A stretch of DNA of 63,969 nucleotides, the filler included, from Chrysochromulina tobinii (taxonomy: Eukaryota), in assembly GCA_001275005.1 (NCBI GenBank). It is 11 parts of 11 records of this genome, joined end to end, with 100 filler letters (N's around TTAATTAATTAA, not from the genome) between each part and the next. Parts side by side here need not be neighbours in the genome. Positions count along the whole stretch, not along the records: positions 40,531 to 48,672 come from JWZX01000530.1; 10 more parts are not named here. One strand, written 5' to 3'. Below the pieces are notes generated by a model. The model worked only from the letters and a program-made list of their open reading frames with translations, was not told the origin of the DNA and made no database searches. Within the stretch, counting starts at the first letter, position 1, and each line of letters begins with the position of its first letter. The position numbers were made by a program, and so were the translations under genes. Of the stretch, positions 1,429 through 60,607 are shown piece by piece.

Positions 1429-4400
1429 TTACTGCATCGTCCTCGGGTCCGTAGACCGGGGGTCGGCGGCCGCCATCGCCGCCCGCGGATCCGCGAGGGC
1501 GGCCTGTGCAGCCCCTGATGTGGCCGCGCCCGCGCCCGCGACGCTGCCATTGTCCTGCCCGGCCTTGAGGCCACCTGGCATGTGTGGTTGGAGTCTCTCA
1601 CGAAGCGCGCGCTGACGCATCTCGTCAGTGCGCTGGTCATTCCACTCCTCGTGCCTAATATGGATGACGACACAGCCAAGGGCTTGGAGCAGGCGTGCCT
1701 TGAGCTGCAGCGCGCCGAGCAGCTGGCCCGTGCTCGTGTAGTCCTTGGCCGCATGCAGCAGGATCGCAAACGTGGGTCCGCCCGTCACGTCGTGCGGTAC
1801 GAGGGCATCGATGACGTATGTGTTGAACACCTTGACGCGGTGGGGTAGCCCAAGTGCCTCGAGCGTAGCAGAGACCTCGAGGAGCGGCTGCGGCGCGCGC
1901 TCGCTCTGCACCTGTGGGGAGAGGGCGCCGTGGTGAGCATTTGCATGCAGAGGGATAGCAGAGAGCTCAAGGAGCGGCGGCGCGCGCTCGCAGCTCACCT
2001 GCAGCTGCACCTGCTGCCACGCGAGCTGCGCCTTTTGGCACAGGAGCGGCGGGAGCACCAGCCCGAGCTCTGGAGGCGCCTCGAGCTGCAGCATGAGCAT
2101 GCACTCGGCGATCCGGCATAGCTGGGCAGGTAACGCGACCCCAGAGGCGGCCTGGCTAATGGCTTGGAGCACAGCGATGGTGAGCCGATGCTCGTAGCAG
2201 CGCAGCGTGAGCAGTGACCACAGGCAGAGTGTGAGGGAGTGCAAGTCAGCATGCTGCGCCGTCTCCGCAATGTCGACGGGCAGCGTCCGGATGGCTTCGC
2301 GTGCCAGCTCTGCGCAGCCCAGCTGTACGAGTGACCAGAGAAGGGTGCCCGCCTCGGCGGGGTCGATGGCGAGGCCTGAGGCGCTCATCAATCGCATGAT
2401 GTCCGCGATCCCGAGCGGCGCCGGAGGCTCCACATGCAGCAGTGCCAAGCCGTGCACCAAGGCGACCGCAGAGTGAGGCAGCAGCTGCTGCACACTGTGG
2501 AGCCGCTCGATGAGGAGCGTGAGGATCGTGGAGGAGCGCCCGTGGTAATGGAGCGCGCCGAGCGCCTCGATGATGGTGCAGGCCTGCGCCTCGTGCAGCA
2601 CCTCGGGCTGCTCGAGCGTCCGAACCAGCTGGGACTCGAGGGCGTCGAGGAGCTTGGGCTCGTCGTACCTGCGCGAGATCAAGGGAGATCAATGGAGATC
2701 AATGGAGATCAAGGGAGATCAAGGGAGATCAAGGAGGAGCTCGGGCTCATCGTACCGCAGCCGCGCCAGACCATCGATCACCTCGGTCAGCATCTGAGGC
2801 ACGAGGACGCCGCCGCTCGTGCTCACGTGGCAGAGCTGCTCGCCGAGCGGCGCGAGCAGAGGCCACGGGCGGCGCATCGGGAGCGAGCCGAGGAGCCGAA
2901 GCGCATCACAGAGCGATTCGGTGGGCTCCGAGCGCGATCTCCGGTCGATCTCGCTGAGCAGCCTCTCTGTGAGGTCGCCTTGGAGCGAGCCGTTCAACTC
3001 GAAGAGGGCCCATGCGGTCTCGACGACCTGCATGCATTGAAGGAGGCACTCAGTGGTAATCAGTGGCATTCAGTGGCACTCAGAGGGCCCATGCGGTTTC
3101 GACGACCTGCGCGAGACGAAGCTGGTTGCGCGTGAGGCGCGCCTCGATCTGGCTGAGCATGCGCGGGAGGAGCGCCGTGTTGGGCCGCTTGAGGCGCGCG
3201 AGCACGTTCATCGTGTCGCACAGCTGCTCGGACGAGATCGAGTCGAGATCGCCGACCAGCAGCAGCAGCTGCTCGATCAACGAAGGGAGCATCATCAGTA
3301 ACGGCGAGTGTGGCGAGAGCTGCTGAAGCGAGGGCAGGTGTCGTACAAAGAGCCAGAGCGCGAGAGAGATCTGCTCGGGCGACAGGCTGCCAGCGAGAGA
3401 GCCTTCGCCTTCAGAGGCCAGCTCCCTCACGATATGCGCCCGAAGCTGCAGCAGTAACGGCTCGGCCAGCGGCATGCGCCGGCAGAGGAGGCGCGCCGTC
3501 GCGAGCAGCTCGGCGAACGAGAGCGGCGCGTGCTCGTGGGCGGCGAGCGCTTGAACGAGCCGCGGCAGCAGCCGCGCGCACGCGGCCGCGCGACCGAGGG
3601 GCACGATGGCGCGGATCAGTTGCGCGACGAGCTTTGCATGGAGCGAGGGCAGCTGTTTGTCGAGCGATCGCATCATGCGCGGGTACGCGGGCGCCTGGGC
3701 GAGGGGCCAAGGGGCCAAGGGTACAGACAGGCAATGAGAGGCAATGAGAGGCAATGAGAGGCAATGAGAGGCAATGAGAGGCCATCAGAGGCCATCAGAG
3801 GCCATCAGCGGTCATCAGAGGCAATCACCTGGGCGAGGCCGAGGGTACAGAACGCCCACAGGCAGTGCGCCGTGTCCGAGGCGGTGAGCGCGTGCAATCT
3901 CGACGCGATCTCCTCGAAGAAGGCCGTGAGGATACGCGTGTCGAGCACCTGAGGGACGAGGCGCCGTGGTGAGCGCGTGCATGCAGGGCCTGGTGAGCGC
4001 GTGCATGCAGGGGCAGGCCATCCGCGGCACTCGACGCACCGAGAGCTCGGCGAGCGCGCACAGGGCCTCGCGCAAGTAGCCGGAGTCGAGCGCGGGCAGA
4101 AAGTCGTGCAGCTTGGCGAGAATCTTGGCGAATTCGGGGCGCGACACGATCGAGGCTGCCCACGACTCTGGATCAGGGCACAGCTGCACCTGGCGCGCGA
4201 GCTTCGAGAGGCCGGTGCACAGCTGGAAGCCGGATACGGGCCGCTCGGTCAGCAGCTGCAGCAGCGCCGCCTCGTTGGTCGCACGCTCGATGTCGAGGCT
4301 GAGGGACTCGGCAAGGTGCGCAGCACGCTCGCGCGCGAGCACGAGCGCAGGCTGCATCGGCCTGCCCAGCTTCTCAAGCTCCGCGAGGCGGCTCGGCAGC

Positions 4401-5391
4401 TCGTTCGGCGGGATCTGTTCCACCTGAAGACGCATCGCCTGCTCGCATCCGTCGAGCAGCTGCTCCACGAGCACTGATTTGGCCTGATGAAGGAGGCAAT
4501 CGGAGGCCATCAGGGTGAGGACCGCCTGATGAGGGAGGCAATCAGTGGAAGCACTGATTTGGCGCTCACCTCGGCGCTCGTGAGCGTCTGCAAGGCCCAC
4601 GTGAGCTCGGCCGCGCGCTGCAGGCCGAGCGCGCGCGCCTCCATCCCCGACAGCGCCTGCGTGAGTGGCTCCACACTCGCGGCCGGAGGCGCGACCTGCG
4701 CCATCGCGAATGCGATCAGCAACGAAGCTGAGCCATGCGCGAGCATCGTCTCGCAATAGCCGGGCTCGTCGGCGCGCCCCTCGAGCTGCGCGCGCGTGCG
4801 CGAGCCCTCGATCGTGAACTCCTCCAGCCGCGCCGTGCTCACCGCACGCAGCAGCGGCTCCGCCTGCACGCCGAGCCCCTCGACGAGCGCGCGCGACAGC
4901 GTACCCAGGTGTGCGGCGTTTAAGTCGGCGAGGCGCGGCAGCACGATGGACGTGACCGCCTGGCCGATCGGGCCGCCAAGCTGCTTCAGCTTCGCGAGCG
5001 CTTGCGTGGCGAGCAGCAGCTGCGCGGAGGTCACGCGCCCATGCTGCGCGAGCAGCAGCAGCCGCTTGACGAGCCCTTGCAGCAGCGGACTCTCGGCCTG
5101 CTCGAGGCAGGAGAGGGCCCACAGGATCGAGGTGAGGCCCTTGACATCGGTAACAGTCGCGCCGCTCAGCATGCCTCCGAGCCGCATCATCATCTTGCCA
5201 AACCACGGCAGCTCCGCGAGCGCCTTGCGCTCCGAAGCGGGGAGTACCAACGCCGTGCGCGCGAGCGTATGCAGCCCGATGCTGAGCACGCCGACCGGCA
5301 AGCGTTCATAGTGGGCCTCGAGCAGCCGAGAGATCTCGTGCGCGCTTGTCTGCGTGAGGAAGACATCGTACAGGTGGTCGGCCGTCGCCAT
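1429..5391 (-). CDS. Helical-repeat protein with C-terminal RAP domain (FASTK/OPR-RAP-like RNA-binding protein), 7 exons, about 1132 aa
   Basis: Exons 5391-4570, 4483-4040, 3948-3829, 3694-3107, 3027-2756, 2668-1999, 1911-1429 join in frame. Repeated LWAL-type helices; RAP signature YVIDAL...LKARLLQALGCVVIHIRHEEW. Confidence 0.8.
1912..1998 (-). other. Intron (87 nt, in frame): downstream-exon echo plus acceptor cassette A
   Basis: GTGAGC...GCATGCAAATGCTCACCACGGCGCCCTCTCCCCACAG; the first ~45 nt resemble the start of the next exon. Confidence 0.85.
2669..2755 (-). other. Intron (87 nt): 22-nt downstream-exon echo plus TTGATCTCCC array
   Basis: GTACGATGAGCCCGAGCTCCTC vs exon GTACGACGAGCCCAAGCTCCTC; ends GCGCAG; removes in-frame stops. 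Confidence 0.88.
3028..3106 (-). other. Intron (79 nt): 25-nt downstream-exon echo plus decamer array
   Basis: GTCGTCGAAACCGCATGGGCCCTCT vs exon GTCGTCGAGACCGCATGGGCCCTCT; ends TGCATGCAG; restores frame. Confidence 0.9.
3695..3828 (-). other. Intron (134 nt): decamer array plus upstream-exon echo at the 3' end
   Basis: Starts GTGATTGCCTCTGATG; ends TCTGTACCCTTGGCC...CTCGCCCAG, copying the preceding exon end TCTGTACCCTCGGCCTCGCCCAG. Confidence 0.88.
3949..4039 (-). other. Intron (91 nt) ending in a variant of cassette A
   Basis: GTGCGT...GCATGCACGCGCTCACCACGGCGCCTCGTCCCTCAG; restores frame ELS|VLD. Confidence 0.85.
4484..4569 (-). other. Intron (86 nt, or 80 nt with a GC donor at 4563) with two stacked CATCAG acceptors
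   Basis: GTGAGC, then 14-nt echo GCCAAATCAGTGCT; acceptors CTCCCTCATCAG and CTCCTTCATCAG. Confidence 0.82.
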
Positions 5392-9600: not shown

Positions 9601-11487
9601 TCCGGCGAGCACGCGCCGCCTTGCTGGCCTTGCGGCGCCAGATGGTGCACAGCTTCCTCGCGTGCCGATTTGCGGCGGCGAAGGTGTGCGCCGTCTTCGT
9701 CGTCTGGCGGGGCCAGGTGGTGCAGGCCGCCCTGAAGCAGCGAGGCGCGGCGGCGTTTGTTGAAGGGAGGGTGCGTCGGGCGCTCAACACGTGGCAAGCG
9801 AGTGCGGAGCGGGTGGGAGCCGGAGTCACCATACGGCGCTGTCGTGCGCTCCTCGCGGCAAGTGGCTTGAAAGAGCGAGCTCGCACGCTGCTCACAGGCT
9901 TCCGACGCTGGGTGTCCCACGACGAGGCCGAGAGCGCGCTGCGGAAGGCGAGCGCCTGGATGACGAAGCACGAGCTCCACAGAGCCTTCGTGGCGTGGCG
10001 GTGGGCGCATCTCGACTTGGCGCTACAGAGCACGCGCGCACGTGCGGCGGCGCATCGGTTCGGCCAGTCGACGCTCGCACGGGGCTGGAACACGTGGCAA
10101 GCCGTCGCCTTCTCCGTGGCGATCGTGCACATGAAGGTGCGCAAGTTACTCCGCAACGTCCTCCACCAGCACAGCTGGCGTGCCTTTCACAGCCTCGTGA
10201 CCCACGCGGAGCACCGTCGTCAGCTCCGTCTGGGGGCCTGCGCGTTGCAACGGCATGCGCCTCGGCGCGCCATGATGACGTGGCGAGACCATGCCGAGGC
10301 ACGGCTCGTCCAATCGGCGCTGCTGCATCGCGCCCTCGCGTGGATGGTCGCATGTCCATCGGTGCGGCGCTCGTGGCGCCTGTGGACCCAAAGGGCTGTC
10401 TTGGACGCAGCCGAGCTCGACGCGACTCATGCGGCGATGGAGAGAGTCATCAGGCGGCTGCGCCATCGGCGCCTCGGGCGCGCACTCAATACGTGGGAGG
10501 CGCTGGCCGTGCTGCTGCTCAAGACGGCGCGCGCGTGCAGCGTGTGGGTGCACCGGCGCATCGCGACTGGATTCCACAGCTGGCTCGAGGCGTGGCTGCA
10601 GCAACAGGGGACGCTCGCGACGACACGCGCCGTGCTGCGCCAGTGGAGATCGAGGCGCCTCGCGCGTGGGTTTGACACGTGGCTGGGCTCGGTGCTCGAG
10701 CAGGTCGCACACCAAGCAACGCTCGCGACTACGATCCGCGTCGAGATTGCTAGGTGAGGGAAGGTCTCCGATGGCCTCCTATCGATTCTAAATGCCTCTG
10801 ATGACCTCTCCTTGCCTCTCTCATTGCCTCTCATTATCGTGCTTGCTAGGCGACGCCTTCACGTGCATCACGCTCTCGGTCTGTGGAAGGACTTCCGGCG
10901 CGACGCGCAGCGCGTGAAGGGGGAAGAGCGCCGCCGTATCGTCTCGCGGGAGGCGCGCCGGATCGTGTCGCAGGAGGCGGCGTCCTATGACGACCATGAT
11001 GAAGGACGCCATCAGGCTCGGCACGGGGCGTCCTATAACGACCATGATTTGCTCTCGTACGAGGATGAGGGCAGTCGCGTCCCCGGCTCGTCGCAGTCGG
11101 TGGAGCAGCGTGAGGCGCTGCAGGTAGCGGCCGCGTCCCGCTCTATTGCCTGTACTTGCCTCTAATGACCTCTGATTACCTCTAATTGCCTCTGATTGCC
11201 ACTGATTGCCTCCGAGCGCCGCTGCAGGTAGCGGCCGCGTCCCGCTGGCTTGCGGCTGCGGGTCTCGAGTCGGGACCCCCCATGTGGCCTGGGAGGATGT
11301 CACGCCCCACGACCCGGTTCCCGGCGCTGCACGGTAGCGCCGGCTACACGGCGGAGGCGTCGGGGAGCGAGAGGGAACGCCTCTCTTTCGAGTCGGACGC
11401 GGAGGCGGCGAGACGCTCCGCGCTCGTTCACATCTCGGACCTCCTCCTTGACTCTCATCAGTGGCTCGAGCCGGCAGACGCGCAGGT

Positions 11488-11519: not shown

Positions 11520-14500
11520 TGCAGGCCAAGGCGGCATCCCAGTGGCTCGCGGCGACAGGTGTCGAGGCCACGGCACGTGGCGCGTCGTATCGGTCTGTGG
11601 AAGGTGTCGAGGCCACGGCACGTGGCGCGTCGTATCGGCAGAAGGCGCCCGGGGAGGTGTCCATTCCACAACGGCCGGACGGCCCCATCCCCGTGATGGG
11701 CCCCGACGAGGCGCCCATCACGGCGCCGGCCTCGCCGCAACTGCAGCGCTCTCCCGGGTTCACGCCCGCGCCACGCTCGTCTCCGGCTGCCCGCGCCCGG
11801 CCGCACGCCGCGTACTCGCAGCAGATGCGCGTCGAACCCGAGTGGATCCGCTCACCTGTGAAGAGCTCGCCTGTGAAGAGCGCGCGCACGACGCTGCCGC
11901 TCGCGTACCCGGCGCTGCAAACCCTCACGGCGCTCGGCACGCCGGATGTACATCAGCTCGGCTCCGTCGAGTCGCTCCAGGTGACTGATGACCACTGATG
12001 ACCCTTGATGACCACTGATCGCCACTGATTTCCACTGATGACCTCTGATGACCACTGATCCCCTCCGTCGAGTCTCGTCAGTTCGCGGAGGCGGCCAACC
12101 TCGCGGTGGAGCAGCAGATCGCCCAGATCGCGCGGCTCGAGGCGCTCAGGATGGCGCTCGACCAGTGGGTGGCGGGCTGGATGGCGCAGCGCGAGTATGC
12201 ATGGGAGCTGCGTGCGACGGAGCGAGCGCTCTTCCACCGGCTGCACACCGAGTGCTGCCGTGCCTTTGACGCGTGGGTGCAGGCTGTGCAGTGGTGGCTC
12301 TTCGGGCTCCAGATAGGTCACCACGGCCGGCTTCGTGTGCTGCGTGAGGCTCTCCAAGCACTAGTGGCCGCGGCGGTCAACCGCCGCCAGCTGCTCGTGG
12401 CTCTGGGCCACTACCGGTATGGCGGATTCCACAGGGGATGGCACACGTGGCGTGCCCATGCGCAGGCCGCACGCGCCGCACTGGGCGCTCGTCTCAAGCG
12501 CGCCGTGCGCCATATGCTCAATCGACAGCTCGCGCGCGGCTGGCACGCGTGGGTCGCCTTCGCTGAGACGCGCGTGGCAGCCCGTGCCAAGGGCTACCGC
12601 GCCTTGGTCAGCCTGCTGCACCAAGCCCTCGCGCGCGCGCTGCGAGGGTGGGTCGCTCGTGTTGAGCAGGCCTCGGCTGCAAACGCGAAGCGGCTTCGCG
12701 CCATCGCCAGCCTCTTCAATCAAAAGCTCGCGCGCGCGCTGCGAGGGTGGGTCGCTCGTGTTGAGCAGGCCTCGGACGTGCAAACGCGGAAGCGGCTTCG
12801 CGCCATCGCCAGCCTCTTCAATCAAAAGCTCGCGCGCGCGCTGCGAGGGTGGGTCGCTCGTGTTGAGCAGGCCGCGGATGAGAAGGCCAAGCGGCTTCGC
12901 GCCATCGCCAGCCTCTTCAATCAAAAGCTCTCTCGCGCGCTGCGAGGGTGGGTCGCTCGTGTTGAGCAGGCCGCGGATGAGAAGGCCAAGCTCCAAACGA
13001 CCCTCGCCACCTTGCTTCATCAAGCCCTCGCGCGGACGCTGCGTGCATGGTGCGCCGAGACAGCGCAGTGGAAGCTTCCGAGAAGCTTCCTCAAAACGAG
13101 TGTGCATCGGTGGCGCGAGCGTGTGCTGTACACCGCCTTCGTTCACTGGTCCTCCTCGTGTGTGCACCAAGGTCGTGACGATGCGGCGATGCGGGCGGCG
13201 GGCGCGAGGTTTCTGCATGCGGCGGCCACGCGTGCTTGGAACACGTGGTGCGCATGGCATGCTGCGCGAGCTCGCCTGCTCGGGCTGGCACGTGCGCTGC
13301 TGCAGCAGGGGCTACGACGAGCCCTCAATACGTGGCAGGCCACCTCTTCGGACCTCGCACAGCGGCAGCAGCTCATGACCTCGGCGCTGCGCAAGATGCA
13401 GAAGAGAGAGCTCTGCCAGGGGTGGCTGGCGTGGGCGGCAAGCGCGCCGGCGGCGCGCCGGTGGAGGCTGATGGAGTGCTCGGTACGTCGCCTACACCAT
13501 CGTGATCTCTATCGGGGCTGGCTGGCGTTGGAAGCCTCTTCGAAGCAACGGCGGCTGCAGCAACGGTCGCTCGCGGCATGGCGAGGGAGTGCGCTCTGGG
13601 CGGCTCTGCAGGCATGGCGCCTGCTGGCCGGGGAGTCGACCGCCGCGGCGGCCCACGCTGCCTGGCTGATGGACGCCTCCCCGGAGGCTCTCCGACGGAT
13701 GCGAATCGTGATGGATTCGGTCGCGCGTCGGTTACGCCGGCGTGTGATGCATGCGTGGTCGGCGTGGTCAGCGCCATCGGGCCTTCGCCGGCGCAGCGCC
13801 AAGACGGGCGTTCGTCGGGCTGTCTGGTACCTCCTCTCGCCCTCTGACCGAGCAGCATGGCCCAAAATTTGGACCGACTTTTTTTGGGTGGAGCCACACT
13901 TGGCGGGACCTGCGCGAGTGGCTGACCAGCCTCCAGCTGTACGATCGTCCGACCTTCGTGGTGCCCAAGTCGCACGCGGGCCTGGTGAGCGCGCTGCAGC
14001 AGGGGCACCTCTACGAGCACCTCATCTACCGAATCAGCCGGCCGCACGAGCGCCTCCGGCGCGCCGTCGCGGGCGCCGACGCGACCACGACGCACATCTA
14101 CGCGTGGGCACGCTCGCACTCGCGCGTCGGGCTGAGGGGAGGCCCTCCGCTCGAGCGTCCCACCAACCAACAGCGCGACGAGGGCGATGGCTGGCGCCAT
14201 CTGCTGCGCGCCTTTTTCGCGTCCGAGTTGGTTCACAGCGCCCTCGGAGAGGAGGCAGGTGTGAAGCTCGGTCTTGTCGGCGCGGCGCTCGGCCGCGCGG
14301 GAGCCAATGACTTGCTCGACCACCTGCGCGTCCTGTGCGCGCTCCGGGCCGTGAGTGAGATGCACGAGCCCTCCTTTTGGGTCCCCTTTGTGGCGTCCAT
14401 CAGCCGGGCGTCGTGCCGGGCAGGCGAAGGCGCACCCGCGTACGAGCGTGAGGAGCCACGGCTGACGCCCAAGCATCCACTCGATGACTACTCCGAATGC

Positions 14501-21459: not shown

Positions 21460-24400
21460 ATGGCGGACTGGCTCAGAGGCGTCGTCGCCGACAAGGTGCT
21501 TCACAAAGTCCTCGGCAAATTCGTCTCCGGCATCGACAAGGACGCTCTCGACCTGGACCTGGGCATGGGAGACATCGCGCTGCACTCTCTGGCGCTCAAT
21601 CTTGAGACGTTTGAGGCGCTCGACCTGCCCTTCCATGTCGCGGGCGGTACGCTCGGCCAGGTGCGGGTCAAGGTGCCGTGGAGAAACATCACCAACGAGC
21701 CCACGAAGATTGTCATCGACCGTGTCTACTTGCTGCTTTCGCCCAAGGACGCGAGCCCGGTCTCGGCAGACGCTCGCGAGGCGGCGGCGGCGGCGGCGAA
21801 GCGCGAGTTTCTTGAGGGGTGGGAGGCGCAGCAGGAGCGCAAGAGGGAGCAAAAGCAAGGCTTCGGCGCTTACGTGGGCGAGCAGGTCGAAAAGCTCGTT
21901 CGCAGCATCCTGCAGAAGCTGCAGGTCTCGATTACGAACGTCCACGTGCGCATACAGCAGGGCGTGGGCGCTGGAGGGGTGGCCGCGGGAGTTTCCGTAC
22001 GCTCGATCCAAGTGACCGACATGGCGCTCGCCGACGCAGGCAGCGCGCGCCATAGTAGCGACACGCACCTGGCCAGCATGCTCGCCCAACTGGTGCGCAA
22101 GTCGGTCCGTATCGAAGGTCTCGCAGTCTACCTCTCGGGCAGCGCATCGGGCGGCGCATCGGGCGGCGCGTCGGGCGGCGCGACGGGCGGCGCGTCGCAC
22201 ACAGACCGCGCGGCGTGGGAGCGGCTGATGGTGCCCATGCTCGAGGCGAGGACCACGCTCCCAGATCACATCTTGCCGCCGCTCGACGTGAAGCTCGAGG
22301 TGGAGTTCAACCAAGCTGATGACCTCTGATGACCTCTGATGACCTCTGATGACCTCTGATGACCTCTGATGACCTCTGATGACCTCTGATGACCTCTGAT
22401 GGCCTCCCTCATCAGGTGGAGTTCGACCCAGCGGGTTCGCTCGACCCGGTGCGTCGTCCATGGCCGAAGCTCGCGCTGCGGGTGGAGGTCGAGGGCACGC
22501 TGGCGGTGCGCATGCGACGTGCGCAGCTTGGCTGGCTGCTCGAGCTCGTCGAGACCATCGCGCGCATGGAGCGTCGCCATCGCTTCCTCCGCTGCAGACG
22601 ACCAGTGGTGCCGCCGCGAGCGAGCAATGCGGCGGCGTGGTGGGCGTACGCGGTGCGCGCGGTCATCTCGAAACGCTCTGATGACCTCTGATGACCTCTG
22701 ATGACCTCTGATGACCTGTGATGACCTCTGATGACCTCTGATGACCTCTGATGACCTCTGATGACCTCTGATGACCTCTGATGACCTCCGATGGCCTCCC
22801 TCATCAGGTGCGCGCGGTCATCTCGAATGCTCGTGAGGATAGCACCGCGGTCACCTGGTATGAGCTGACGCGCCGTCGTGAGCAGCGCCTCGCGTACGTG
22901 CGCGCGTACGGCGCCTACTGGCAAAAGGGCTCCGGCGGCGGCCGGGCGGCGGCGCTCGAGGCGCTCGAGTCCAAGATGAGCCTCGAGCTATGCATGCGCT
23001 ACCGCGAGCTCACGCGGGTCGTGGGGGCGAGCTTGCCTGGGCGCTGGTGGGAGGCGCCGTCGTGGGCGCGAGCGGGCGCCGAGGAGGCGTCGTCGTGGGC
23101 GCTCTTGCTCCCGCCGCTCACGGTGGCCAGTGGCGCGGGTGCGGGCGCGCCACCACCGGAGAAGAAGGGCGGCTTTGACTGGTTCGGACTGTTCAAGCCG
23201 ATTGAGGACGAGGAGGGTGCGGATGGCGGTGGCGCGCGCGGCGCGGGGGCAGCTCAGGGAACTCTGAGCAGCGCCGCCGCTTCGAGCGTTGCTTCGAGCG
23301 GCGCCACTGGCGGCGGCTCGGCGAGATACAATCTCGGAGATGGCGGCGGCTCGGCGGCCCTTGACGACGCGTTGCGCCGTCAGGTGCGCGCGCGCTATAG
23401 CCTGGGCGAGCGCGCTGAGCTGCCCGAGACGGCGCTCCAGAAGCTGCTCGATGAGATCATCGAGGGCGAAGCGCTGGCAGTGGCCGACCTCGATGGGAAG
23501 CCTCTCGCCGCCTTTGCAGACTATGTCCAGACCGAGGTGGCGGCGAGCCTCGGCGCCCTCTCGGCGACGCTGCTCGCGAGCTCCACGAGTGTGCTCGCGG
23601 TGGCCGAGATTGTATCTCCGAAGGTGAGCCTCAAGCAGCGCACTTACCGCAAGGGGCTCGGGCTGCAGGCGCGCGTGGGCGCATTACGGCTCATCGACCG
23701 GCTCACGCCCTGTGCGCCGCTAGCGTGCGCGCTCACGGGCGAGCGGCGCGGAGGCCAAGACTGGCTGGTCTTGAGCCTCGACACGGAGCCTCTGCATTCG
23801 GATGCAGCGATGCACTTACAGGTGGCCATGCAACCGCTGATTACGTCCCTCATCACGTGTGCTCCAGCATGCAACCGCCGCATGCAAGTGCTCACCCCGG
23901 CGCCCTCCTCCCCACAGGTGGCCATGCAACCGCTGCATGCGACCCTCAACCCGCGACTGCTCGCCGCGTGCGGTGCGTGGTTCCAGGTGCCCCCCTCCCA
24001 GTGGTCCGCCGCCATCGAGCTCGAAAAGGTGACGCGCGGCCTGCTGGTCAATCTCGTGGGCGCGATACGGGAGATTGCCATGCGCACCTGGCGCAATCGG
24101 CCGGTGCACCTGGGCGTGTTCATCAGCACGCTGACCGTCTTCTGGGTACAGCCGCCCCCTCTTCGAGCCGATGCGAGCCCTTCTTCTCTGACGAAGTTGA
24201 CGAGGCCGACGAGGCCGACGAAGCCGCGGTCGGACGCGCTCGCGCTGCATGGGCTGGAATTGCACTGCGAGGGCATCTTGCTCTCTTCGGAGGAGGCGGT
24301 TCGGTCCGACGCGGACACCGTGCCGAAGAGATGGAACGACGACGCCGATGCCGGCCTTGTGGGGGGGGCGGCTCCCGTCCACTCGGAACAGGCGTTTGGC

Positions 24401-27400
24401 CTCTCGCTAAGTGGGCTGCGCCTGAGCTTGCTCCCGGCGGCGCAATGCGTGGCATGGCTGGCGGACCCGGTCGGCGCGGTGGCGTGCGCGACGCCGCTGA
24501 CTCATCCGCTCAATGCACAGCTCACGCTGGCGGTGCTGCTCCAACCTATGGGCGTGGAGGTGCCGTGGGTTCGTGCGCAACTCGCGATCGATCCGGTGCG
24601 GTTGCGAGTGCACGAGGGGTCCCTCGCCGCTCTGACGACGCTCGCGGTGGGCAGCGGCCAAGCCCTTGATCCTGCTGGCGAGGGCGGTATGATGTTGCCG
24701 GGCTCTGAGGACGAGACGCCCAACGCGCGCGCGGATGAGCGCGGGCTGGGCGCCGTCGGGGAGACGCCCATGGGTTGGTTCTCAATCCAGCGTAGCCAGG
24801 AGGTGCAGGGGCGCGTGGATGCGCAGCTGCTGGGCGACTGCCACGTGTCACTCGAGCTCGGCTACCTCGTGTACGAGATGCAGCAGCGCGAAGGCGAGAG
24901 CTCGATCGCGAAGATCAAGCTCAAGGACTATGAGGTGCGGGGTGGGCCGACGCCCGAGTCCTTCCAACTCTGCTCGACTTTCCAAGCCTTAGGGGTGTTC
25001 AGCTGCGAGACGTACACGCTGGTGGCCGAGTCGCGCTCGCTCTCGACGCGCTTCCAGTCGGCGTGCGCTGCGATGCAAGCTCTCTCGCGGGCCGAGGCGC
25101 CGGTCGTGAAGAAGAAGAAGAAGAAGAAGCCCCGCGCCGCCGATGCTCTCGGCTTCATGGCCGCGGAGCGCCAGAACCGGCTTGTGCTCGACGCGCGTAT
25201 CGGCGGCTTGTTTGTCGAGCTGCTGCCCGACAGCGTGGGCGGTGGCGCGGCGCGCTCGAGCTCGGCAGCGCTCGTCTCGTGTGCGCTTCGTGAGCTGCGC
25301 GCGCACCTCGTGCTTCGGAAGCGCGATGTGCGCTGCGCTGTGCAACTAGAGTCTGCGGACTTGCAGATCGCCGTGCGCGAGCCTCAGCTCGTCTCGACGC
25401 CAGCACACCGGCCTCCGACCTCGATCCTCGTGCCACTCATCTACATCGTGCCCTCGGCGGCGGCGGTGGCAGCGCAGAGGCGAGGTGACGCCGGCATGGA
25501 GGGCGTGCTGATGTCCTCTGATGTCCTCCGATGTCCTCTGATATCCTTTGTTGCCCTCTTGAGTGCCTCCATCATCAGGCGACACCGACGCCGAAGGCGC
25601 GGTCCAGCTCGACCTACTGCTTGCGACCGAGGGCTCGCCAGAGTACCCGTCGGTGGCCGCGCAGCTCAAGCTCACGGCTCAGCTCGGAGGGTTGCGAGTG
25701 CACCTGGCGGCCGACTCGCTCTCGGCTGTAGGCGAGCTGATCGTGCGAAGCCGAGGGCTCATCGACCGGGCAGCGGCGGCGGTGGCGCGCTCGGCCGAGT
25801 CGCCGCGCACGCCCAAGCCCGCGCCCTCGGTGGCCGCGGCGCTGGGCGCCGCGTCGGGTGCTTCGACCGAGCCGCGGGCGTCGGCTCCAGCTGTGGCCTC
25901 TGGGCTCTTGGACGAGAAGCCGTTGAGGAGCCGGGACGACGCCCGGGACGACGCCTCGCTCGCAGCGCCCGCAGCGGCGGACGCCCGGGACGACGCCTCC
26001 GCCGCGGCCCACGCTGCGAGCGCCGTGGCGAGCGCCAAGCCCGTCCTGGCGATCGAGGCCTACGTAGGGTACTTGTACGTGGTGCTCCATGAAGAGCCCC
26101 CAGCGCACATTGCGGGGCTTGGGCCGATGGGCGCCGCGTTGGGCGCCGCCGTCGCCGGCCTGGCTGACCTGAAGCTCGAGCGGCTCGAAGCGACGCTGCT
26201 GCTCGAGCTCGACACGATGCAGATCGACGCGCACGTGCATGGCCTCGGGCTGACGGTGCGCGATGGCCTGGGTAAGGCGCCGCTGGTGGTGATCAGCACG
26301 CTGCATAAAGGCGTCCGGGCCGCCGGCGAGGCTGCCAATCCGTCGCCGCCGCCCCGAGAGGTGAGTCTCACCTTGGCCTCGCTCGCCGACCTCTCGGATA
26401 CCGCCGAGCACCGTGACGGGCGCTGTGCCGAGCACCGACTGGACCGCATGGCGAGCGCCGTGTCGAGCGCCTCCTCACGGCAAGGGAGCGAGCTCGCGGC
26501 GAGATCGACGCGCTCGCTGCAGCGCCAAGAGAGCATCGCCAGTGCGCAGAGCGAGGTGGGCGCGGACGTGCCGACAGTCACCTTCTCCCTCGCGGGGGTG
26601 GCGCCCGGTGATGAGCCAGTCGATGATGCGTACGGATATGAGGACGGGGGGGCGGAGGACGTGGAGGAGCTCTCTCTCCTTGAGAACGTTGGCGAAGCTT
26701 CGGAGCTGCGCGGAGATGCGTCCGAGCTGCGCGGAGATGCGTCCGAGCTGCGCGGAGATGCGTCCAAGCACAAGCTGCTCACGTTTGCGATGAGCCTGTG
26801 GGACGAGAAGAGCGAGCGCCATCCCGGGTACGACTCGGAGATCTCGCTCGAGCTCGCGCCTGATTGCCTCCCTCATTGCATGCTGATTGCCTCCCTCATC
26901 AGGTACGACTCGGAGATCTCGCTCGAGCTCGCGCCCACGCGTATCTTTGGTCCGTTGCCCGTGGTGCGCCGGCTGCAACTCTGCTTCATGAAGGTCCTCG
27001 ACGCATTGACCAAAGGGCTCCTTGACAGGCTCGGTGAGCAGGCGGCGGTGGCCGCATCGGCGCTGGCGGCCGAGGGGTTGCGTCAGGTGGCCGCGGAGCA
27101 AAAGGGGTCCGGCGCCAAGCTCCGCATCATGGCGCACGGCCCACTCATCATCCTGCCGTCGGCGACGGTGCCCGGCACAGCGCTCGTCGTGCGAATGGCC
27201 GACATCCTCTTCACGAACGCCTCCGACGGCGCGGTCCACCTCGAGCGCGCCCGCGCCGCCTCGGCCTCGGGCCTCGGGCCTCGGGCCTCGGGCCGGCCAG
27301 CAGCGGCCTTCGAGCGGCTGCGCGTCTCCCTCGAGAAGACGTCCATCTTCGTCGCGTCGTCGTTGAGCGATCTCGAGCGCCATCTCGACGAGGAGATCGC

Positions 27401-30400
27401 GCTGGAGGCGAGCGGCCCGCAGCCGCACTGGCTCGTGCACGACCTCAAAGTGACTCTCCTGCTCGAGAAGCAAATGATCGGCGGCGGCGGCGACGACGGC
27501 GCAGCCAGCGGCGCGGCGCAGGGAGCCGAGCCGTTGGTTGAGCTCACCCTCGGGCTCGAGCTCTCGGAGATACAAATCTCGATTGCGACCTCGGAGTGCG
27601 CCTTCGCCTCGCTCCTGGCACAAGAGGCCATGGCCGTCTTCGTGGACGCAGAGCCCCACACCGACGAAACCGACAGGGCCGACCAGCTCGAGCGCGCCTC
27701 GACCCATATTAGGAACGATCCGCTCGGGACGGCGCCGACGAGCGAGGCGGCGGGAGGTGGCGGTGCCCGGGACGGCGCGACCGAAGCGGAGCAGCTCGAC
27801 GACGACGACGACGACGCGGAGGCAGGGAGCGCGGCGGTCGGTGGGAAGCCGAGTGGCCGTTACGTCGGCAGCCGCAGCGGGCCGAGGGCGCCCACGACGG
27901 CGCCCCCGAGCACCGATCCGAGCTTGGGGGTCACGAAGATGGTCTTCAACGGCAAGATCGAGTGCGCTGGTGGTGTGCAGCTGGAGCTGATCGACGACTC
28001 GCAGGGCAGCTTGATGCCCATCCTCGAGCTCGGAGTCGATGAGGTCGCGGGCAGCTGGACGCTCGTCAACGACATGGTCAACGGCGAGGTGGTCGCGCTC
28101 AAGGACGCCATCGTGCAACTCACGTTCGGAGCTCACGCCTCCCTGCTCAATACGAGCCACGGTGAGTGGGAACCTCTGATGGCCTCTGATTGCCTCCCTC
28201 ATTGCATGCAAGTGAGTCTGCTCAACACGAGCCACGGTGAGTGGGAACCTCTGATGGCCTCTGATGGCCTCTGATGGCCTCTGATGGCCGCTGATGGCCT
28301 CTGATGGCCTCTGATGGCCTCTGATGGGCCTCTGATGGGCCTCTGATGGGCCTCTGATGGGCCTCTGATGGGCCTCTGATGGCCTCCCTCATTGCGGGCA
28401 GGAGAGTGGGAGCCCGTCCTAGAGCCTTGGCACATCGGGCTCCAGGTCAGCAAGCTGCAGGCAGTGGCCGAGGAGCTCGACGAGGAGGCGGCGCTCGCGA
28501 CGGCGCCTGCGCCTAATAAGGGTGCCTCGGGCAAGCCGCCCACGACGGCGCCGGTACGTTCCGCCCCGAAAGTGCTCGACGAGTTCCATATTAGGATCGG
28601 CTCTAAGGAGTCGTTGGAGCTCAACTTGTCACCCGCGTTCATGAGCTCCGCGCATGCACTGCTACATGTCGTCACGGTCGCGTTGGAGGCGACGAGTGCG
28701 CAGAGCGAGGCAGCACTCCTCGCACTTCGTCGCTCGATGGGCACCGTCACGGCCAACAGCGTCGCCGTGCGCAACTGCACCGAGCTACCGATGGCCATCG
28801 CCATGTCGTCACGGGCCTTCGAGGCGCCGCGCGCCATCGCACCGGGCGCTGAGGTGACCCTGGTCGACGAAGGGGTGCCGGCGTACGAGGCCTTTAGTCA
28901 GCGCTCAAGCCTGTTCGCCGAGACGACCGAGAATCTCGACTTTGTGTACGCGGCGCTGCCCTTGATTACCATTGATTACCATTGATTACCATTGATTACC
29001 ATTGATTACCATTGATTACCATTGATTACCATTGATTACCATTAATTACCATGGATTGCCTCGACTTTGTGTACGCGGCGCGCCACAATCAACTGGAGCC
29101 CTTCATCGAGCATGCAAGTGCTCACCACGGCGCCCTCTCCCCACAGGTACGCGGCGCGCTACAATCAACTGGAGCTCTTCATCGAGCTGCTCGAACGCCA
29201 TGCAAACCTGAACTCGTACGACGCCAAGCGGCGCACCGCGTTGCACGCGGCGGTCAAGCACCGTCATCATACGATCGTGCGATTGCTGCTGCGCGCCGGC
29301 GCGTCGGTCAACGTGCCAACGCTCGATGGCGCGATGACGACGCCGCTCCACCTTGCCGCCATGTCGGGCAACCTGGAGATGGCGCGATTGCTGCTCGAGG
29401 CACACGCAGACCCCGCCCTCACCAACTCGGATGGCGAGAACACGGCGGGCGTGGCGGCAGGACACGTCGAGGTCCAACGGCTCCTGTACGCGCCGCCGCC
29501 CGCGCTTCGTCAGGGAGCTGCATGCGAGTGCTCACCACGGCGCCCTGTCTGTCACCGCCGCCGCCCGCGCTTCGTCAGGGAGCTGCATGCGAGTGCTCAC
29601 CACGGCGCCCTCTCTCCTCCCCACAGGTACATGCATCTCGCCGATGAGGCCAAGGGCTCGGGAGTCCGATTTCCGTCTGCGGCGCTCGTCGTGGCGGCGG
29701 CGCGCGGCGACCTTGCCACCGCCCAACGGCTACTTCGCGTGCGTCTGATTGCGTCTGATTGCGTCTGAGTGCGTCTGATTGCCACCGCCCAACGGCTGCT
29801 TCGCGTGCGTGTGATTGCGTCTGAGTGCGCCTGAGTGCGTCTGATTGCGTCTGATTGCGATGCATGCAGGTGCGCGCCGAGCCAAACTCGTCTGATTGCG
29901 TCTGATTGCGTCTGATTGCGATGCATGCAGGTGCGCGCCGAGCCAAACTCGACCGATGGCTCGCATACGGCGCTCTGCCGCGCGTGTGAGAACCAGAGGT
30001 ACGAGCTCGTCACGATCCTTCTCGAGCACGGCGCTCGGGCCAGCGACATCGCGCCGAGCGGCACCACCGCGCTGCACTGCGCGGCCCGCGCGGGCCCCAA
30101 GCGGCTCGTCACGCATCTCATCGAGGCGAAGGCAGACCCGTTGCGCGCGCACACGGCCGAGGGCACCCTGCCCGTCGAGATGGTCAATTGGCGACTGGGC
30201 GTCGGCACGAGCGAAGCGACGGCGGTGCACGAGGTGCTGTGCAGCGCGTCCCTCAGCAAGGCCGAGTGCTCGGGGTTTCTGACGAAGCTGGGCGGCGAGC
30301 GGCTGAGCTGGAAGCGGCGCTTCTGCATCGTGCCGACGGCCAAGTCTGACGAACTCCAGCTGCGCTACTTCGCGGACGAGAAGCTCACTAGCCTGTACGG

Positions 30401-40530: not shown

Positions 40531-43168
40531 GGCCGTGGAGGGATGGCGCCCGGGACGGCGCTCGGATGGCATGCCTCGAGCGGGCGAGGAGGGATGGCGC
40601 CCGGTACGGCGCTTTGGGCGCGCTTCCACATAGGGCTCGGTTTCCACGCGGGTGAGGCGCCGTCCCGGTAAGAGAGCTCGGGCGGCATCTGTGAGGGCCA
40701 ATCGGGCTCCGCACGTCCGCGAGCGCCGTCGCGGGCGCCGCGCCGGCCGCGGCCGCCGCCTGATGGCGAGATTGAATCTCCGAGCGAGATTTCATCTCCG
40801 AGCGAGATTGCATCTCGGTCAAAGGGCGAGTCGTCGGCGCACTCGCTTTGTCTGCTGCTACCCACTGCTACTGCCGCTGCCACTGGGGGCGGGCCCCACC
40901 CACCCCCCCACCCACCGCCCATCCCTCCACCGCCCATCCCGATCTCGTCGAACGAGATCGCGCCGCTGCTCTCGAGGTCGGGCCGCACGAGCTCGTCCTC
41001 GTCGTCCAACGGCTCAAACGGCTCCTCCTCCGCCGCCGACTCCGCGAGCTCATCGAGCTCGCGATCTCCCGCGAAGCCGGCCGTTTGACGAAGCCGACCA
41101 AACTCGCGCCAAAGGCTCACGAGCCACTCCTCCTTGCTCGCGTGCTGCGCCACGAAGCTGCGTTGCTCTTGGTTCAAGCCCATGCCGCCGCCCGCGACGA
41201 GCGCCGTATCGAGCGGCTGCGAGCCCGCGCCGCCGCCGTCGTCAGCCATCGCCATCGCCATCGCGTCGAACTTGGAGAGATCGACCTCAAACTTGAGCGG
41301 GAGCGCGTAGAGCACGGCGCGCGCCATCGACTCAGTCAGGTTGGCGAGGCCACCGAGCCGGAGGAGGTCATGCAGATGCATCGCGACGATGCGCTGGCAC
41401 GGGTAGCCCACGATCAGCGGTCATCAGCGGTCATCAAGGGTCATCAAGGGTCATCAAGGGTCATTACCTGGCACGGGTAGCCCACGATCGTCAGGATCGG
41501 ACTCGCCTCGAGCGTCGTAGCGAGTCGCGGATGGCAGCCGGCGCCGACCATGGACTTACGATGCATCCGATGCGCGAGCGGCGCCTGCGGCACGAGCGCG
41601 CGCCACCTCATATAGTCCGCCTCGCACGTGTGCCGCACGACCCCAGCGCTCGCCTCGAAAGAGTCAAGGCGAGCGCGCCTCTCGAGCAGCAGCAGCTGCG
41701 GCTTGGCCATGTGCCGAAACTCACTTCGACGACGACGGCACTCAAGGAGCACCAGCTGCTCCAAGAGCCGCGGCTTGAAGCGCAGCTCCGCCGCGGCAAG
41801 CTGCGCCTCGATACGCCGCCACGCGAGCCGCATGACGCCGTAGATGAGCCAATAATTACGGATCCAATCAGCCGCCGCGCGCGCGACCCTCAGCTGTTGG
41901 CGTGCCCTCTGACCGCGAGCCACCCAACAGATGAGGGCCGCCGCTTCGTCTCGTAGACGGTCCGCGTGGGAGTAGTAGACCTCGCACGTGTGCGAGTCCG
42001 TCGCGCTGGAGCTCGAGGCGCCGTTTGGGGCGCTCGACACGGCGAGTGCGCTCGGCACGGCGCTCGGCGGCGCGCTCCCGCGCAGACCCGGCGTCTGCAT
42101 GAAGGGCGACGCGTGCGACGCATTCGCCGCGTTGTTGGCCTCGAGTTTCGTCGTACGATGTGCCGAGTGTGAAGGTAGGGAGTGTGAAGGTAGGGAGTGT
42201 GAAGGTAGGGAGTGTGAAGGTACGGAGTGTGAAGGTACGGAGTGCCTCGGTAGCGTCGTCTCCGCCGCCGCCGCCTCCACCGCCGCCGCCTCCGCCGCCG
42301 CCGTCGCCGCCGCCTCCGCCGCCGCCGCCGCTGCGGGGCTGACCCTTGACACCGACACGGCGCCTCGGAAGATTAGCGCCTGCGATGGGAACTGCGTGTT
42401 TGCTTCCCATTGCGCCTTGGTCGCCTTCGCCTTCAGAACCCATGCTTGACGATCCGCCTCGGCTGTACCGGTAGCCGCACGCGCCCCCTCCTCCGCCTCC
42501 TCCGCCTTCACCTCCTTGGCCTCTGCATCGGCGTCGCGTTGGGTCTTGTCCTTGGCGACTGACGGGGCCGTCGCCTCCAGCAGCTCGGCTTCCCGCCGTT
42601 CGGCTTCCCGCCGCTCCGCCTCCGACCGTTGCGCTTCCCGCCGCTCCGCCTCCAGCCGCTCCAACGCCAGCCGCAGCCGTTCCACAGCCGCCTGGCGCTC
42701 CGCCTCTGCCAAGGCCACCTCTGCCATTGTCGGCGGCGGTGGCGGCGGCGGCGGTTCGAGCGGCGTTGAGGGTACCGACTGTGGGTGATCGAGCTCCTTT
42801 GGAACGAAGCCCAATGGCCGCCGCTCTGGTGCAGGCTGGGACTGCTGAAGGGCCTCAACCAATTGATGAGCACGTCGAATCTCTCGCTGGATTGCAAACA
42901 GCTCGTCCTCGTAGGGCAGCTTGGCCGCGTCCACCTCGCAAAAGCGGCACCATCGCTGCCAAACAGCAGCGAGCGACGTGCCAATGAATTTATCAATGAG
43001 ACGTTCAAGCAACCGGCTGTTGGCTTGGACGGCTCGAGATGATGGTGCCGCCGCGGCAATTGCTACTGTGTTGAGATCCTGCACGGCCTTGCGCAAGAAT
43101 GCATGCGCCTCCTCACTCGGGACCGGAGCCGCCTCACCATCTTTCAAGGTCGACTCGCTTGTGCCCAT
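40531..43168 (-). CDS. Hypothetical coiled-coil/low-complexity protein with IQ-like segments, 3'-truncated
   Basis: Exons 43168-41468 and 41393-40531 join in frame (GYPCQ|RIVAM). Confidence 0.6.
41394..41467 (-). other. Intron (74 nt): TTGATGACCC array plus perfect 22-nt upstream-exon echo
   Basis: GTAATGACCC...GATCGTGGGCTACCCGTGCCAG, identical to the preceding exon end. Confidence 0.9.
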
Positions 43169-43463
43169 TTGCCACAAACGCTCGCGGCGGCGCTAACTGT
43201 TCACGCGGCAGTCTGACCAATTATACAGGCACCGTCTTAAAAAGTAATACAGCCACATCTGTGGGTTCCATCGACCCTATGCCGCACCCAACTGAAGCTG
43301 TGGGCGCTGGCCGCCGGGCCTTACATGTACAGAGTACAATAGCTGGTCGAGTGGGCCTTCGCGTGTGTCGTGTTTGCGCCAATATTGATAATGTACATAC
43401 GGGTTTCCTTGCAGCTTGCTCCAGAAATGGTTCCATCCAATATTGATAAATTGTACATCCTTG

Positions 43464-44179: not shown

Positions 44180-44224
44180 AAGTCAAGTCAAGTCAAGACA
44201 AGTCAAGTCAAGTCAAGTCAAGTC
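44180..44224. repeat. (AAGTC)n microsatellite, 9 units
   Basis: Directly visible. Confidence 0.95.
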
Positions 44225-46274: not shown

Positions 46275-46373
46275 TCAAGTCAAGTCAAGTCAAGTCAAGT
46301 CAAGTCAAGTCAAGTCAAGTCAAGTCAAGTCAAGTCAAGTCAAGTCAAGTCAAGTCAAGTCAAGTCAAGTCAA
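46275..46373. repeat. (TCAAG)n microsatellite, about 20 units
   Basis: Directly visible. Confidence 0.97.
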
Positions 46374-58964: not shown

Positions 58965-60411
58965 CTAATTAGGGATGCCCCATTCGGCGCCGAACCGTCG
59001 AGCGACATCTTCCATGGGCAGTCGACCCACCCCCAACGCCCCCCCCTCCGGATTGCGATGATCCACTCGCACGCCCGTTCGGGAGACGAAACCTGCCGCC
59101 CGATAGGCCCCGCGGAGGGCGACGCGCCGTGCACGCGCCGTCGCGGCCACCTGACGAGATGGTGGGCAAGGCCGCTCGGCGGCAGCACGCAGCTCACGGG
59201 GCCACTGGAGTTGGGCTCGGCCCCAGCGTTCAATGTACGCATGGAGGCCGTCATCGTCGTCATCGGGCGTGCAGTCGCCGCCGTGGCCGTCGCCGCCGTC
59301 ATTGCCCTCGCCGCCGCCGACGCCGCCGCCCTCGTCCTCGTCGTCGCAACCCTCCTCCCAGTGCTGCATGCAATAAAAGGGACTGCCAAATTAGGGGCAC
59401 GTGCCATATTAGGGACAGGGGACGACACGTGTCGAAGGCAAGGGACGGGACGGGACGGGTTAAGGGATAGGATGGGGATGGGGATGGTGGAAGGGGGGAG
59501 GGTGTGGTGAGGTGAGAGGTGCCTCTCGTAGCTTACTCGACGCCGACCAGCCCCGCATTCTGCCACATGGCCTCATTGATGGCCGGATCGTGGTCGATCA
59601 GAGTGTACGCGAACCAGTCGCGTCCCCATCGCCAGTCGAGCCCGAGCCCTGATGAGGGAGGTAATCAGAGGCAATCAGAGTCAATCAGAGGCAATAAGAA
59701 CCCGAGCCCTTCGGTCAGCGCACAGGCCTAAGGCAAATAGAGGCAATTAGAGGCAATTGGAGGCAAATAGAGGCAATCAGAGGCAATAAGAGGCAATTAG
59801 AGGCGATTAGAGGCACTCCGAGGCACTCAAAGGCCATCAGTGGAAGGTGCGAAAGTGCCAGTACCTTCGGTCAGCGCGCAGGCGCAGAGTAGCCGCATCC
59901 GGCGAGGCATCCAACCGCATGCCCACAACTGGCGCATCGAGGCATCCACCAGAGGAGCCCCCGTACGACCGACACACCTGCCATCGGGCGCAATCACAAG
60001 GCATTCAGAGGCGCGCTCAGAGGCACTCAGAGGCACACTATTATGGGTTGCCTAATATGGGCAGTTGCCTCATATGGACTCGGTCCCAGCACAGCCCACT
60101 CCTCGTACCAGGCAGCAAATGTCTCCAAAGCCTCCACCGATGGGTTGCCTAATATGGTTAGTTGCCTCATATGGCAAAAACCATCAAGTGGAGCGACGAC
60201 GGGCTCTGCTTGACGAAGCTCGGCGTTGCCTAATAAGGATGGTTGCCTCATATGGCAACAGCCATCAAGTGGAGCGACGACGGGCTCTGCTTGACGAAGC
60301 TCGGCGAGCAGCCGCCAGCACAGATGCGACCAATCTCGCCAGAGGAGATCGCGACGTCGCACGCCGAGGCGAGCGGCCGTGCGTGGGGAGATGAGGCCGA
60401 ATCGCAGGTAC
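58965..60411 (-). CDS. DNA photolyase/cryptochrome FAD-binding domain, 5'-truncated
   Basis: Exons 60411-60109, 59977-59865, 59648-59537, 59382-58965 give YLRFGLISPR, LLWRDW, FAAWCVGRTGAPLVDASMRQL, GWMPRRMR, LDWRWGRDWF..LIDHD..IN..MWQ, GVDPF, YIERW. Confidence 0.88.
59383..59536 (-). other. Photolyase intron (154 nt) ending CCTAATATGGCAC...CCTAATTTGGCAG
   Basis: GTAAGC donor; restores GVD-PFY. Confidence 0.85.
59649..59864 (-). other. Photolyase intron (216 nt) with an internal copy of the spliced junction
   Basis: GTACTG...CTCCCTCATCAG; restores TEGLGLDW. Confidence 0.88.
59978..60108 (-). other. Photolyase intron (131 nt) with degenerate decamers
   Basis: GTACGA...ATGGCAG; restores FAAWCVGRTG. 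Confidence 0.85.
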
Positions 60412-60607
60412 CTGATGAGGGACGCAATCAGAGGTCATCAGGGAGGCGAGCGGCCGTGCGTGGGGAGATGAGGCCGAATCGCAGGTACCTGATGAGGGAC
60501 GCAATCAGAGGTCATCAGGGAGGCGAGCGGCCGTGCGTGGGGAGATGAGGCCGAACCGCAGGTACCTGATGAGGGACGCAATCAGAGGCCATCAGTGGCC
60601 ATCAGTG
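60412..60607 (-). other. Photolyase intron, 3' part: three tandem acceptors at a 77-nt period
   Basis: GCGTCCCTCATCAG|GTACCTGCG at 60566, 60489 and 60412. Confidence 0.85.

What the first reader, a model, noticed from the sequence alone, without database searches (positions are those of the whole stretch)
41394..41489. Mirror-image class: the intron 3' end copies the upstream exon
SEEN: the array starts right at the donor (GTAATGACCC) and the acceptor is a perfect 22-nt copy of the previous exon end. The same polarity appears at 3695-3828, 10754-10849 and 11981-12081. INFERENCE: two opposite polarities are hard to get from one directional insertion mechanism. Both follow naturally if a spliced template replaces either half of an intron, or if selection keeps whichever duplications contain a usable GT or AG.
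Basis: partly seen in the sequence, partly recalled or inferred. Interest (0 to 1): 0.72.

Follow-up and report, generated by a model that had tools for sequence, protein, structure and literature searches.

The report
Intron-making repeat cassettes with long duplications
In a Chrysochromulina-type alga, many short introns hold a block of 10-base repeats flanked by a roughly 20-base copy of the neighbouring exon, likely the footprint of one insert-and-duplicate process that makes new introns, with the copy likely kept at whichever end supplies the missing splice site.

Summary
The core observation holds. 41394-41467 (minus strand) is a 74-nt GT-AG intron, skipped by one RNA contig. Its last 22 nt copy the upstream exon end exactly. 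The three other cited loci are weaker (exact echoes 10, 7, 3 nt). In the window plus 142 fetched loci, 234 of 441 arrays are flanked by a direct repeat (1.7% in permuted pairs), and the echoes are registered to splice sites. The two polarities are not separate classes: of 82 precisely spliceable events the junction lies at the repeat's start in 33, its end in 25 and inside it in 24, and 69 further events give no precise intron. Several duplicated flanks copy intron-only sequence, which argues against a spliced template. One array intron (4484-4563) is absent from relatives' read-through proteins, which points to gain. Best reading: one process inserts array cassettes copied from other introns, duplicating about 11-50 nt of target, and splicing selects the survivors. 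DNA versus intron-RNA template is unresolved. Against: one position is shared with a 71%-identical relative. New variant of known intron-gain routes.

The parts
41394..41467 (-). Focal intron, 74 nt, GT-AG, phase 0; upstream-echo type
   Evidence: RNA contig skips it; frame restored
41468..41489 (-). First copy of the 22-nt repeat: end of the upstream exon, ending in AG
41416..41467 (-). 52-nt filler: about five 10-nt units; supplies the donor; 3 nt shared with the start of the repeat
41394..41415 (-). Second copy of the repeat (the echo); supplies the acceptor
41468..43189 (-). Upstream exon, 574-codon open frame, no Pfam family; P0190-P0195 (6 of 6 fetched) end by reading into the same intron head
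40531..41393 (-). Downstream exon, open to the contig end, no Pfam family
3695..3828 (-). Upstream-echo intron, decayed echo; donor made of the repeat's G plus an array unit
10754..10849 (+). Array intron with only a 7-nt echo (not significant)
   Evidence: RNA contigs stop at 10754
11981..12081 (+). Upstream-echo intron, 12 nt exact plus a diverged end
59649..59864 (-). Nested intron: upstream echo ending at 59709, then a short downstream echo, array and fixed tail
   Evidence: splicing not tested
4484..4563 (-). 80-nt insertion with a 14-nt duplication, GC-AG if removed precisely; absent from P0225 and P0240 (empty site inferred from proteins)
11124..11227 (+). Straddling intron: 27-nt repeat with AG|GT inside (8 + 19 nt)
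22300..22415 (+). Downstream-echo intron in a VPS13 gene; same junction carries an echo-free array intron in relative P0002
22653..22807 (+). Downstream-echo intron, 20-nt echo, fixed tail
26828..26902 (+). Downstream-echo intron, perfect 33-nt echo
3028..3106 (-). Downstream-echo intron; its tail differs among cluster members
2669..2755 (-). Downstream-echo intron; echo length differs among cluster members
28946..29146 (+). Nested intron: array with a 22-nt repeat straddling an existing donor (no new splice site needed), plus a second cassette type
60412..60488 (-). Downstream-echo intron (46 nt), tandemly re-amplified up to the contig end
1912..1998 (-). Intron with the second (non-array) acceptor cassette and a decayed downstream echo
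   Evidence: an RNA contig of X20 skips 87 nt here; sequence

Best explanation
These introns are likely made by one insert-and-duplicate process that would copy a stretch of 10-mer array from some other intron into a break while duplicating about 11-50 nt of the target, and splicing likely decides which products survive. Shown: the layout flank-T-filler-T-flank, the splicing of the focal intron, registration, microhomology at array junctions, and strand concordance. Inferred: synthesis switches by short microhomology onto another intron, copies part of it, and returns upstream of where it left (staggered-break repair or template switching). If the copied piece ends at an acceptor tail and T starts with GT or GC, the echo sits at the 5' end. 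If T ends in AG and the piece starts with a donor head, the echo sits at the 3' end, as here. If T contains AG|GT, it straddles. Events on existing splice sites or inside introns are neutral and remodel old introns. The array unit resembles the branch-point consensus (recalled) and G plus a unit makes a donor, so cassettes would arrive nearly splice-ready.
For: 234 of 441 arrays have a flanking repeat versus 1.7% of permuted pairs. Junction at the start, end or inside of T in 33, 25 and 24 of 82; two-sided repeats average 29.5 nt, near the 27.1 expected for one event and below the sum of two one-sided ones (23.9 each); the halves are weakly anticorrelated (rho -0.39, p 0.06). The exon after the fixed tail starts with GT in 54 of 81 cases, and in 27 of 30 for the second cassette, versus 5.5% after any CAG. 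Microhomology of 3 nt or more at 20 of 49 and 25 of 56 array junctions versus 6.7%. Eight duplications carry intron-only states (L043 8159, L027, L114, L049 1118, L015 10780, L056 13842, L069 5299, window 28163-28250; by eye). Empty site at 4484-4563 in P0225 (95% identical, 11 contigs up to 11.3 kb, ends by reading into the next intron) and P0240. L130 looks like an unspliced exonic insertion near a gene end. Neighbouring arrays are no more alike than random pairs (cosine 0.146 versus 0.142), and a long donor head recurs in unrelated genes, so the source is likely in trans.
Against: Relative P0002 (71% identity) has an array intron at the same junction as 22300-22415 with no echo: an old position or a parallel gain. 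Gain rests on one site and on proteins, not DNA; no empty site is known for any upstream-echo intron, and all 6 fetched relatives keep the focal one. 110 of 111 adjacent arrays share a strand, which DNA switching in trans explains only with strong selection. 27 of 105 array junctions have no microhomology. 207 of 441 arrays have no significant flanking repeat. There is no in-genome control set of old introns for the GT fraction. Most splice sites in fetched loci are inferred, not RNA-tested.
Confidence: 0.58

Rival explanations
1. Same anatomy, but the template is excised intron RNA: a reverse transcriptase primes at a nick on the intron's 3' end (or inside the array), copies part of it, and the second nick leaves a long variable target duplication.
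For: Fillers end exactly at the acceptor AG (40 of 61); near-perfect strand concordance (110 of 111) with a source in trans; variable repeat length and variable 5' ends with microhomology match target-primed reverse transcription (recalled); the second cassette is a fixed piece of about 40 nt ending at AG.
Against: The upstream-echo class needs internal priming with an intact 5' end; many fillers have both ends inside the array; no poly(A) tail seen; two in-frame insertions may be antisense (L018, L080; coding strand unproven, no Pfam support); no enzyme was identified.
Confidence: 0.22
2. One reading: a spliced cDNA replaces the 5' or 3' half of a pre-existing intron.
For: Shared position with P0002; tails differ among cluster members at 3028-3106; internal exon-exon junction copy in 59649-59864; explains registration directly.
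Against: Eight copies carry intron-only states; in L102 the two halves of such a junction copy differ in age; 24 straddlers would need two events each; empty site at 4484; 65 of 81 tail introns are followed by GT or GC; mismatches fall at codon positions 1/2/3 as 5/7/12 of 24, as expected for decay in place.
Confidence: 0.1
3. No new introns: local slippage duplicates an exon edge plus part of an existing array intron, and a later collapse between repeats leaves a one-sided echo.
For: Tandem re-amplification of echo-plus-array units is common (60412-60607, L003, L106); copy number varies among cluster members at 28163-28400.
Against: Arrays sit between duplications where no array follows the second copy (28946-29146, L079, L140); neighbours are not more alike than random; empty site at 4484.
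Confidence: 0.1

Closest known systems
Introners (10.1101/2022.06.06.494994, passages; PMC12130899, passages, section 6 and supplement rows)
   Same: Related sequence in many unrelated introns; one splice site carried and the other co-opted from a target duplication, in either polarity or both; E. huxleyi families are listed as 'carry 5' co-opt 3'', 'co-opt 5' carry 3'' (one noted with 10-bp terminal direct repeats) and 'co-opt both'.
   Different: Haptophyte duplications listed there are 2-5 nt (4 nt in Chrysochromulina sp.) and each family has one polarity. Here the repeat is 11-51 nt, variable, the filler is a variable array without two fixed ends, and all polarities share one pool. C. tobinii is listed with 0 families.
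Daphnia pulex neointrons from staggered double-strand breaks (PMC4202315, passages; PMC3443670, passages)
   Same: Insertion flanked by a direct repeat of the adjacent exon end; repeated nested events inside young introns.
   Different: Daphnia repeats are 4-12 bp and the inserted DNA is mostly of unknown source; here repeats are about twice as long and the filler is a recurrent splice-signal array.
Tandem genomic duplication at AG|GT (PMC3443670, passages)
   Same: The straddling class uses AG|GT inside the duplicated stretch as both sites.
   Different: A foreign filler separates the copies, and 58 of 82 events take one site from or next to the filler.
10-11-bp strand-biased intronic repeats of Emiliania huxleyi (Read et al. 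2013; recalled, not found)
   Same: About 10-nt tandem units in haptophyte introns, on one strand.
   Different: I recall no account of flanking exon duplications or intron gain there; not verified.

Membership tests
Introner | Similar sequence shared among introns at unrelated loci | tested here: met
   81 distinct copies of one tail, 34 of the second cassette, shared units and heads; similarity is partial, not end to end, for the arrays
Introner | Creates an intron at a site that lacked one | tested here: inconclusive
   One empty site inferred from proteins; one shared position
Introner | Spliced out, with sites carried or co-opted | tested here: met
   RNA joints at 41394-41467 and 1912-1998; Chrysochromulina gene models P0158, P0196, P0223
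Introner | A discrete element with two defined ends moved by an autonomous partner | tested here: not met
   Fillers are 15-253 nt with one, or no, fixed end; no partner identified
DNA transposon (MITE)-type introner | Short fixed-length target duplication and terminal inverted repeats | tested here: not met
   Repeat length is 11-59 nt and variable; no shared inverted ends seen by eye
Non-LTR (target-primed) retro-element | Fixed 3' end, variable 5' end, variable-length duplication | tested here: inconclusive
   Met for tail-bearing fillers; not for upstream-echo or array-only fillers
Non-LTR (target-primed) retro-element | RNA intermediate and a reverse transcriptase acting in trans | not testable with these tools
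   No whole genome held
Staggered-break (repair) intron gain | [quoted passage not shown] | tested here: met
Staggered-break (repair) intron gain | Arises during break repair | not testable with these tools
   Microhomology excess is compatible
cDNA-mediated intron replacement | Copied flank matches spliced mRNA, not intron | tested here: not met
   8 informative cases carry intron-only states; none seen that requires mRNA (by eye among the 69 events)

The most novel reading that the evidence does not exclude
Excised introns of this alga are themselves the mobile template: their branch-point arrays are reverse-transcribed into new sites with long target duplications, making a self-feeding, element-free intron factory that similarity-based introner searches miss and that both creates introns and rewrites old ones.
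Probability: 0.22. Interest if true: 0.85.

Novelty: new variant of a known kind. Interest (0 to 1): 0.62.

Why it matters
Most new introns have no readable source. Here source, target duplication and co-opted splice site can be read in dozens of introns (82 precisely spliceable events) of a cultured alga with wild relatives, and at least one site appears polymorphic. That makes repair-type versus RNA-type intron gain testable by population sequencing. It also suggests a blind spot: a large survey lists no introner family for C. tobinii, a close relative, possibly because variable arrays and exon echoes defeat end-to-end similarity searches (inference).

Tried and rejected
No whole genome is held, so there is no genome-wide count; the sample is the window plus 142 loci picked by an array pattern from 2 of 64 parts of one collection, mixing assemblies of the same organism and relatives. 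L030 (25% GC) was left out; 561 array segments became 502 after de-duplication and 441 with full flanks; 234 events became 219, then 173 or 164 after removing repeats that contain array units. Laying reads on 1-12500 at 90% likeness was swamped by repeat joints; only one true skip could be read from it. Pattern scans of viral contigs and prokaryote genomes found nothing. All-against-all comparison found no empty site in DNA: L077/L097 share their intron, L007/L055 are copies of a mobile element, internal duplications were uninformative. Homolog searches found nothing among longer proteins for VPS13, only relatives of 96% or more for the focal gene and one C. tobinii protein for L002. Local copying of fillers was tested and rejected. 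An excess of synonymous mismatches was tested and not found (12 of 24). A codon model could not show antisense insertions (4 of 69 flagged, similar to its error rate). P0202, P0218, P0220 and P0222 lack some introns and keep others; intronless alleles and partly spliced RNA cannot be told apart, so they are not counted as empty sites. Literature searches found no description of this system; subscription papers, including the E. huxleyi and C. parva genome papers, were not seen, one supplement was cut and two files were not searched.

Full report
Setting. The window is a chain of short contigs joined by N spacers, about 65% GC. Its proteins fall in 90% clusters with named Chrysochromulina parva models, and a fetched locus matches a C. 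tobinii protein. No whole genome was available.

Observation. On the minus strand, 41394-41467 is 74 nt, starts GT, ends AG, and its last 22 nt equal the last 22 nt of the upstream exon. One RNA contig skips exactly this stretch; two other RNA runs did not bridge it and one DNA run shows no joint. The other cited loci restore frames but have exact echoes of 10 nt (3695-3828), 7 nt (10754-10849) and 3 nt (11981-12081, with 12 exact nt further in). The first and third are decayed echoes; the second is not significant.

Wider sample. A pattern scan gave 142 loci, 612 kb. Of 441 arrays with full flanks, 234 have a flanking direct repeat scoring 11 or more, against 1.7% of permuted pairs. Two tests chose splice sites without using the echo. 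Among 101 acceptors marked by a fixed tail, 61 have an echo and 40 of these start at exon +1; 192 of 2000 permuted pairs had an echo and 2 started at +1. Among 85 AG|GT donors heading an array, 44 have an exon-end echo and 32 reach the AG; 75 of 2000 permuted pairs had an echo and none reached it. In 22 of the 32 the second copy continues with GT, so only 10 are pure mirror cases like the focal one.

One layout, three outcomes. Every case reads flank-T-filler-T-flank. Among 164 cleaned events, 82 allow precise GT-AG removal, with the junction within 4 nt of the start of T in 33, within 4 nt of its end in 25 and inside it in 24; 13 more need a GC donor and 69 allow no precise removal. Median T is 21-23 nt for up, down and non-spliceable events and 32 for straddlers. 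Two-sided repeats average 29.5 nt, close to the length-biased expectation of 27.1 for a single event. So polarity records which splice site the target supplied, and needs no second mechanism. Published introners co-opt either site or both, and E. huxleyi families are listed with all three patterns.

Template. Where T overlaps an existing donor or acceptor, its copies often carry intron-only states. At L043 8159 the final copy keeps a one-base deletion present only in an earlier intronic echo. L027, L114, L049 1118, L015 10780, L056 13842, L069 5299 and window 28163-28250 are similar. These were read by eye, and later exon change could explain some. I saw no case that requires spliced mRNA, though 59649-59864 is compatible with it. 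Junctions to the array share 3 nt or more in 20 of 49 and 25 of 56 cases against 6.7% expected; 12 and 15 share none, and four values of 13-20 nt probably reflect old array inside T. Neighbouring arrays are no more alike than random pairs, yet 110 of 111 adjacent pairs lie on one strand.

Gain or remodelling. After the common tail the exon starts with GT in 54 of 81 cases, and after a second, non-array cassette in 27 of 30, against 5.5% after any CAG. This is what a cassette that co-opts its donor from the target predicts; a control set of old introns is missing. Metagenome proteins called on unspliced DNA read into introns, which shows intron state in relatives. At 4484-4563, 13 listed proteins end or start in the filler; P0225 (95% identical, on 11 contigs) and P0240 read straight through while reading into later introns; P0228 and P0241 show a one-codon variant without the array (15 of 39 and 15 of 100 cluster members were listed). 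This points to a recent gain, inferred from proteins only. Against it, P0002 (71% identity, 3 members) has an echo-free array intron at the same VPS13 junction as 22300-22415, while P0003-P0008 and P0011 have no insert there. Tails also differ among cluster members at 3028-3106. Both gain and remodelling of old introns therefore seem to occur. The focal intron is present in 6 of 6 fetched relatives, so its own origin is not shown.

Mechanism. I commit to microhomology-primed copying from other introns during break repair or template switching, filtered by splicing (0.58). Target-primed reverse transcription of excised intron RNA gives the same anatomy and explains the strand bias better (0.22). 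cDNA half-replacement (0.10) and purely local slippage (0.10) fit less well.

Known systems. Closest are introners and Daphnia staggered-break introns (4-12 bp repeats). This case differs in long variable repeats, a filler pool made of splice-signal arrays, and all polarities from one pool. C. tobinii is listed with no introner family; marine Chrysochromulina genomes have many. Papers seen: passages of 10.1101/2022.06.06.494994, PMC3443670, PMC11282704, PMC4202315 and PMC3152781 (nothing relevant); passages, section 6 and supplement rows of PMC12130899; supplement rows of PMC9860276. The E. huxleyi intron repeats, the branch-point consensus and the hallmarks of target-primed reverse transcription are recalled. 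Ten searches found no description of this system, but unseen papers and supplements may bear on novelty.

Verdict. A real feature, a new variant of known intron-gain routes, interest 0.62.

Noticed in passing
window 1912-1998, 29071-29146, 31026-31120, 31331-31417, 33482-33640; many loci: A second, non-array acceptor cassette of about 40 nt: 34 copies, echo starting at exon +1 in 18 of 34 versus 13 of 2000 permuted pairs, median echo 26.5 nt; only the downstream polarity was looked for and seen.
   Followed up: partly
window 21463-36300: VPS13 gene with internal ankyrin and PH domains and about a dozen cassette introns.
   Followed up: partly
window 1432-5391 (minus): RAP / FAST-kinase-like gene with six cassette introns, whose states vary among cluster members.
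   Followed up: partly
L130 270-370; L018 1240-1320; L080 260-370: Array insertions with duplicated flanks and no usable splice sites: one seems to cut off a C-terminus, two are in frame and possibly antisense; coding strand unproven.
   Followed up: partly
window 46275-46373 and 44180-44224: Pentamer arrays; the first (about 20 copies) ends just before an ATG, suggesting a promoter or 5' leader repeat.
   Followed up: no
window 47300-48170: Low-GC repeat block with inverted arms; parts recur in L013 and L057, like a transposon end.
   Followed up: no
window 52963-53532: Imperfect palindrome of about 570 nt.
   Followed up: no
window 60717-62836: Long frame with a zinc-knuckle-like motif, resembling a retrotransposon gag (by eye; not scanned).
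   Followed up: no
L007 191-1692 and L055: Two copies of a mobile element with inverted ends that carries the 10-mer array inside; a possible vehicle or reservoir for the array.
   Followed up: no
window 42165-42244: Coding 15-nt repeat in the focal gene whose copy number differs among relatives.
   Followed up: partly
window, ten places such as 16942-17041: Contig joins made of two 44-N runs around a 12-nt linker; an assembly artefact.
   Followed up: yes
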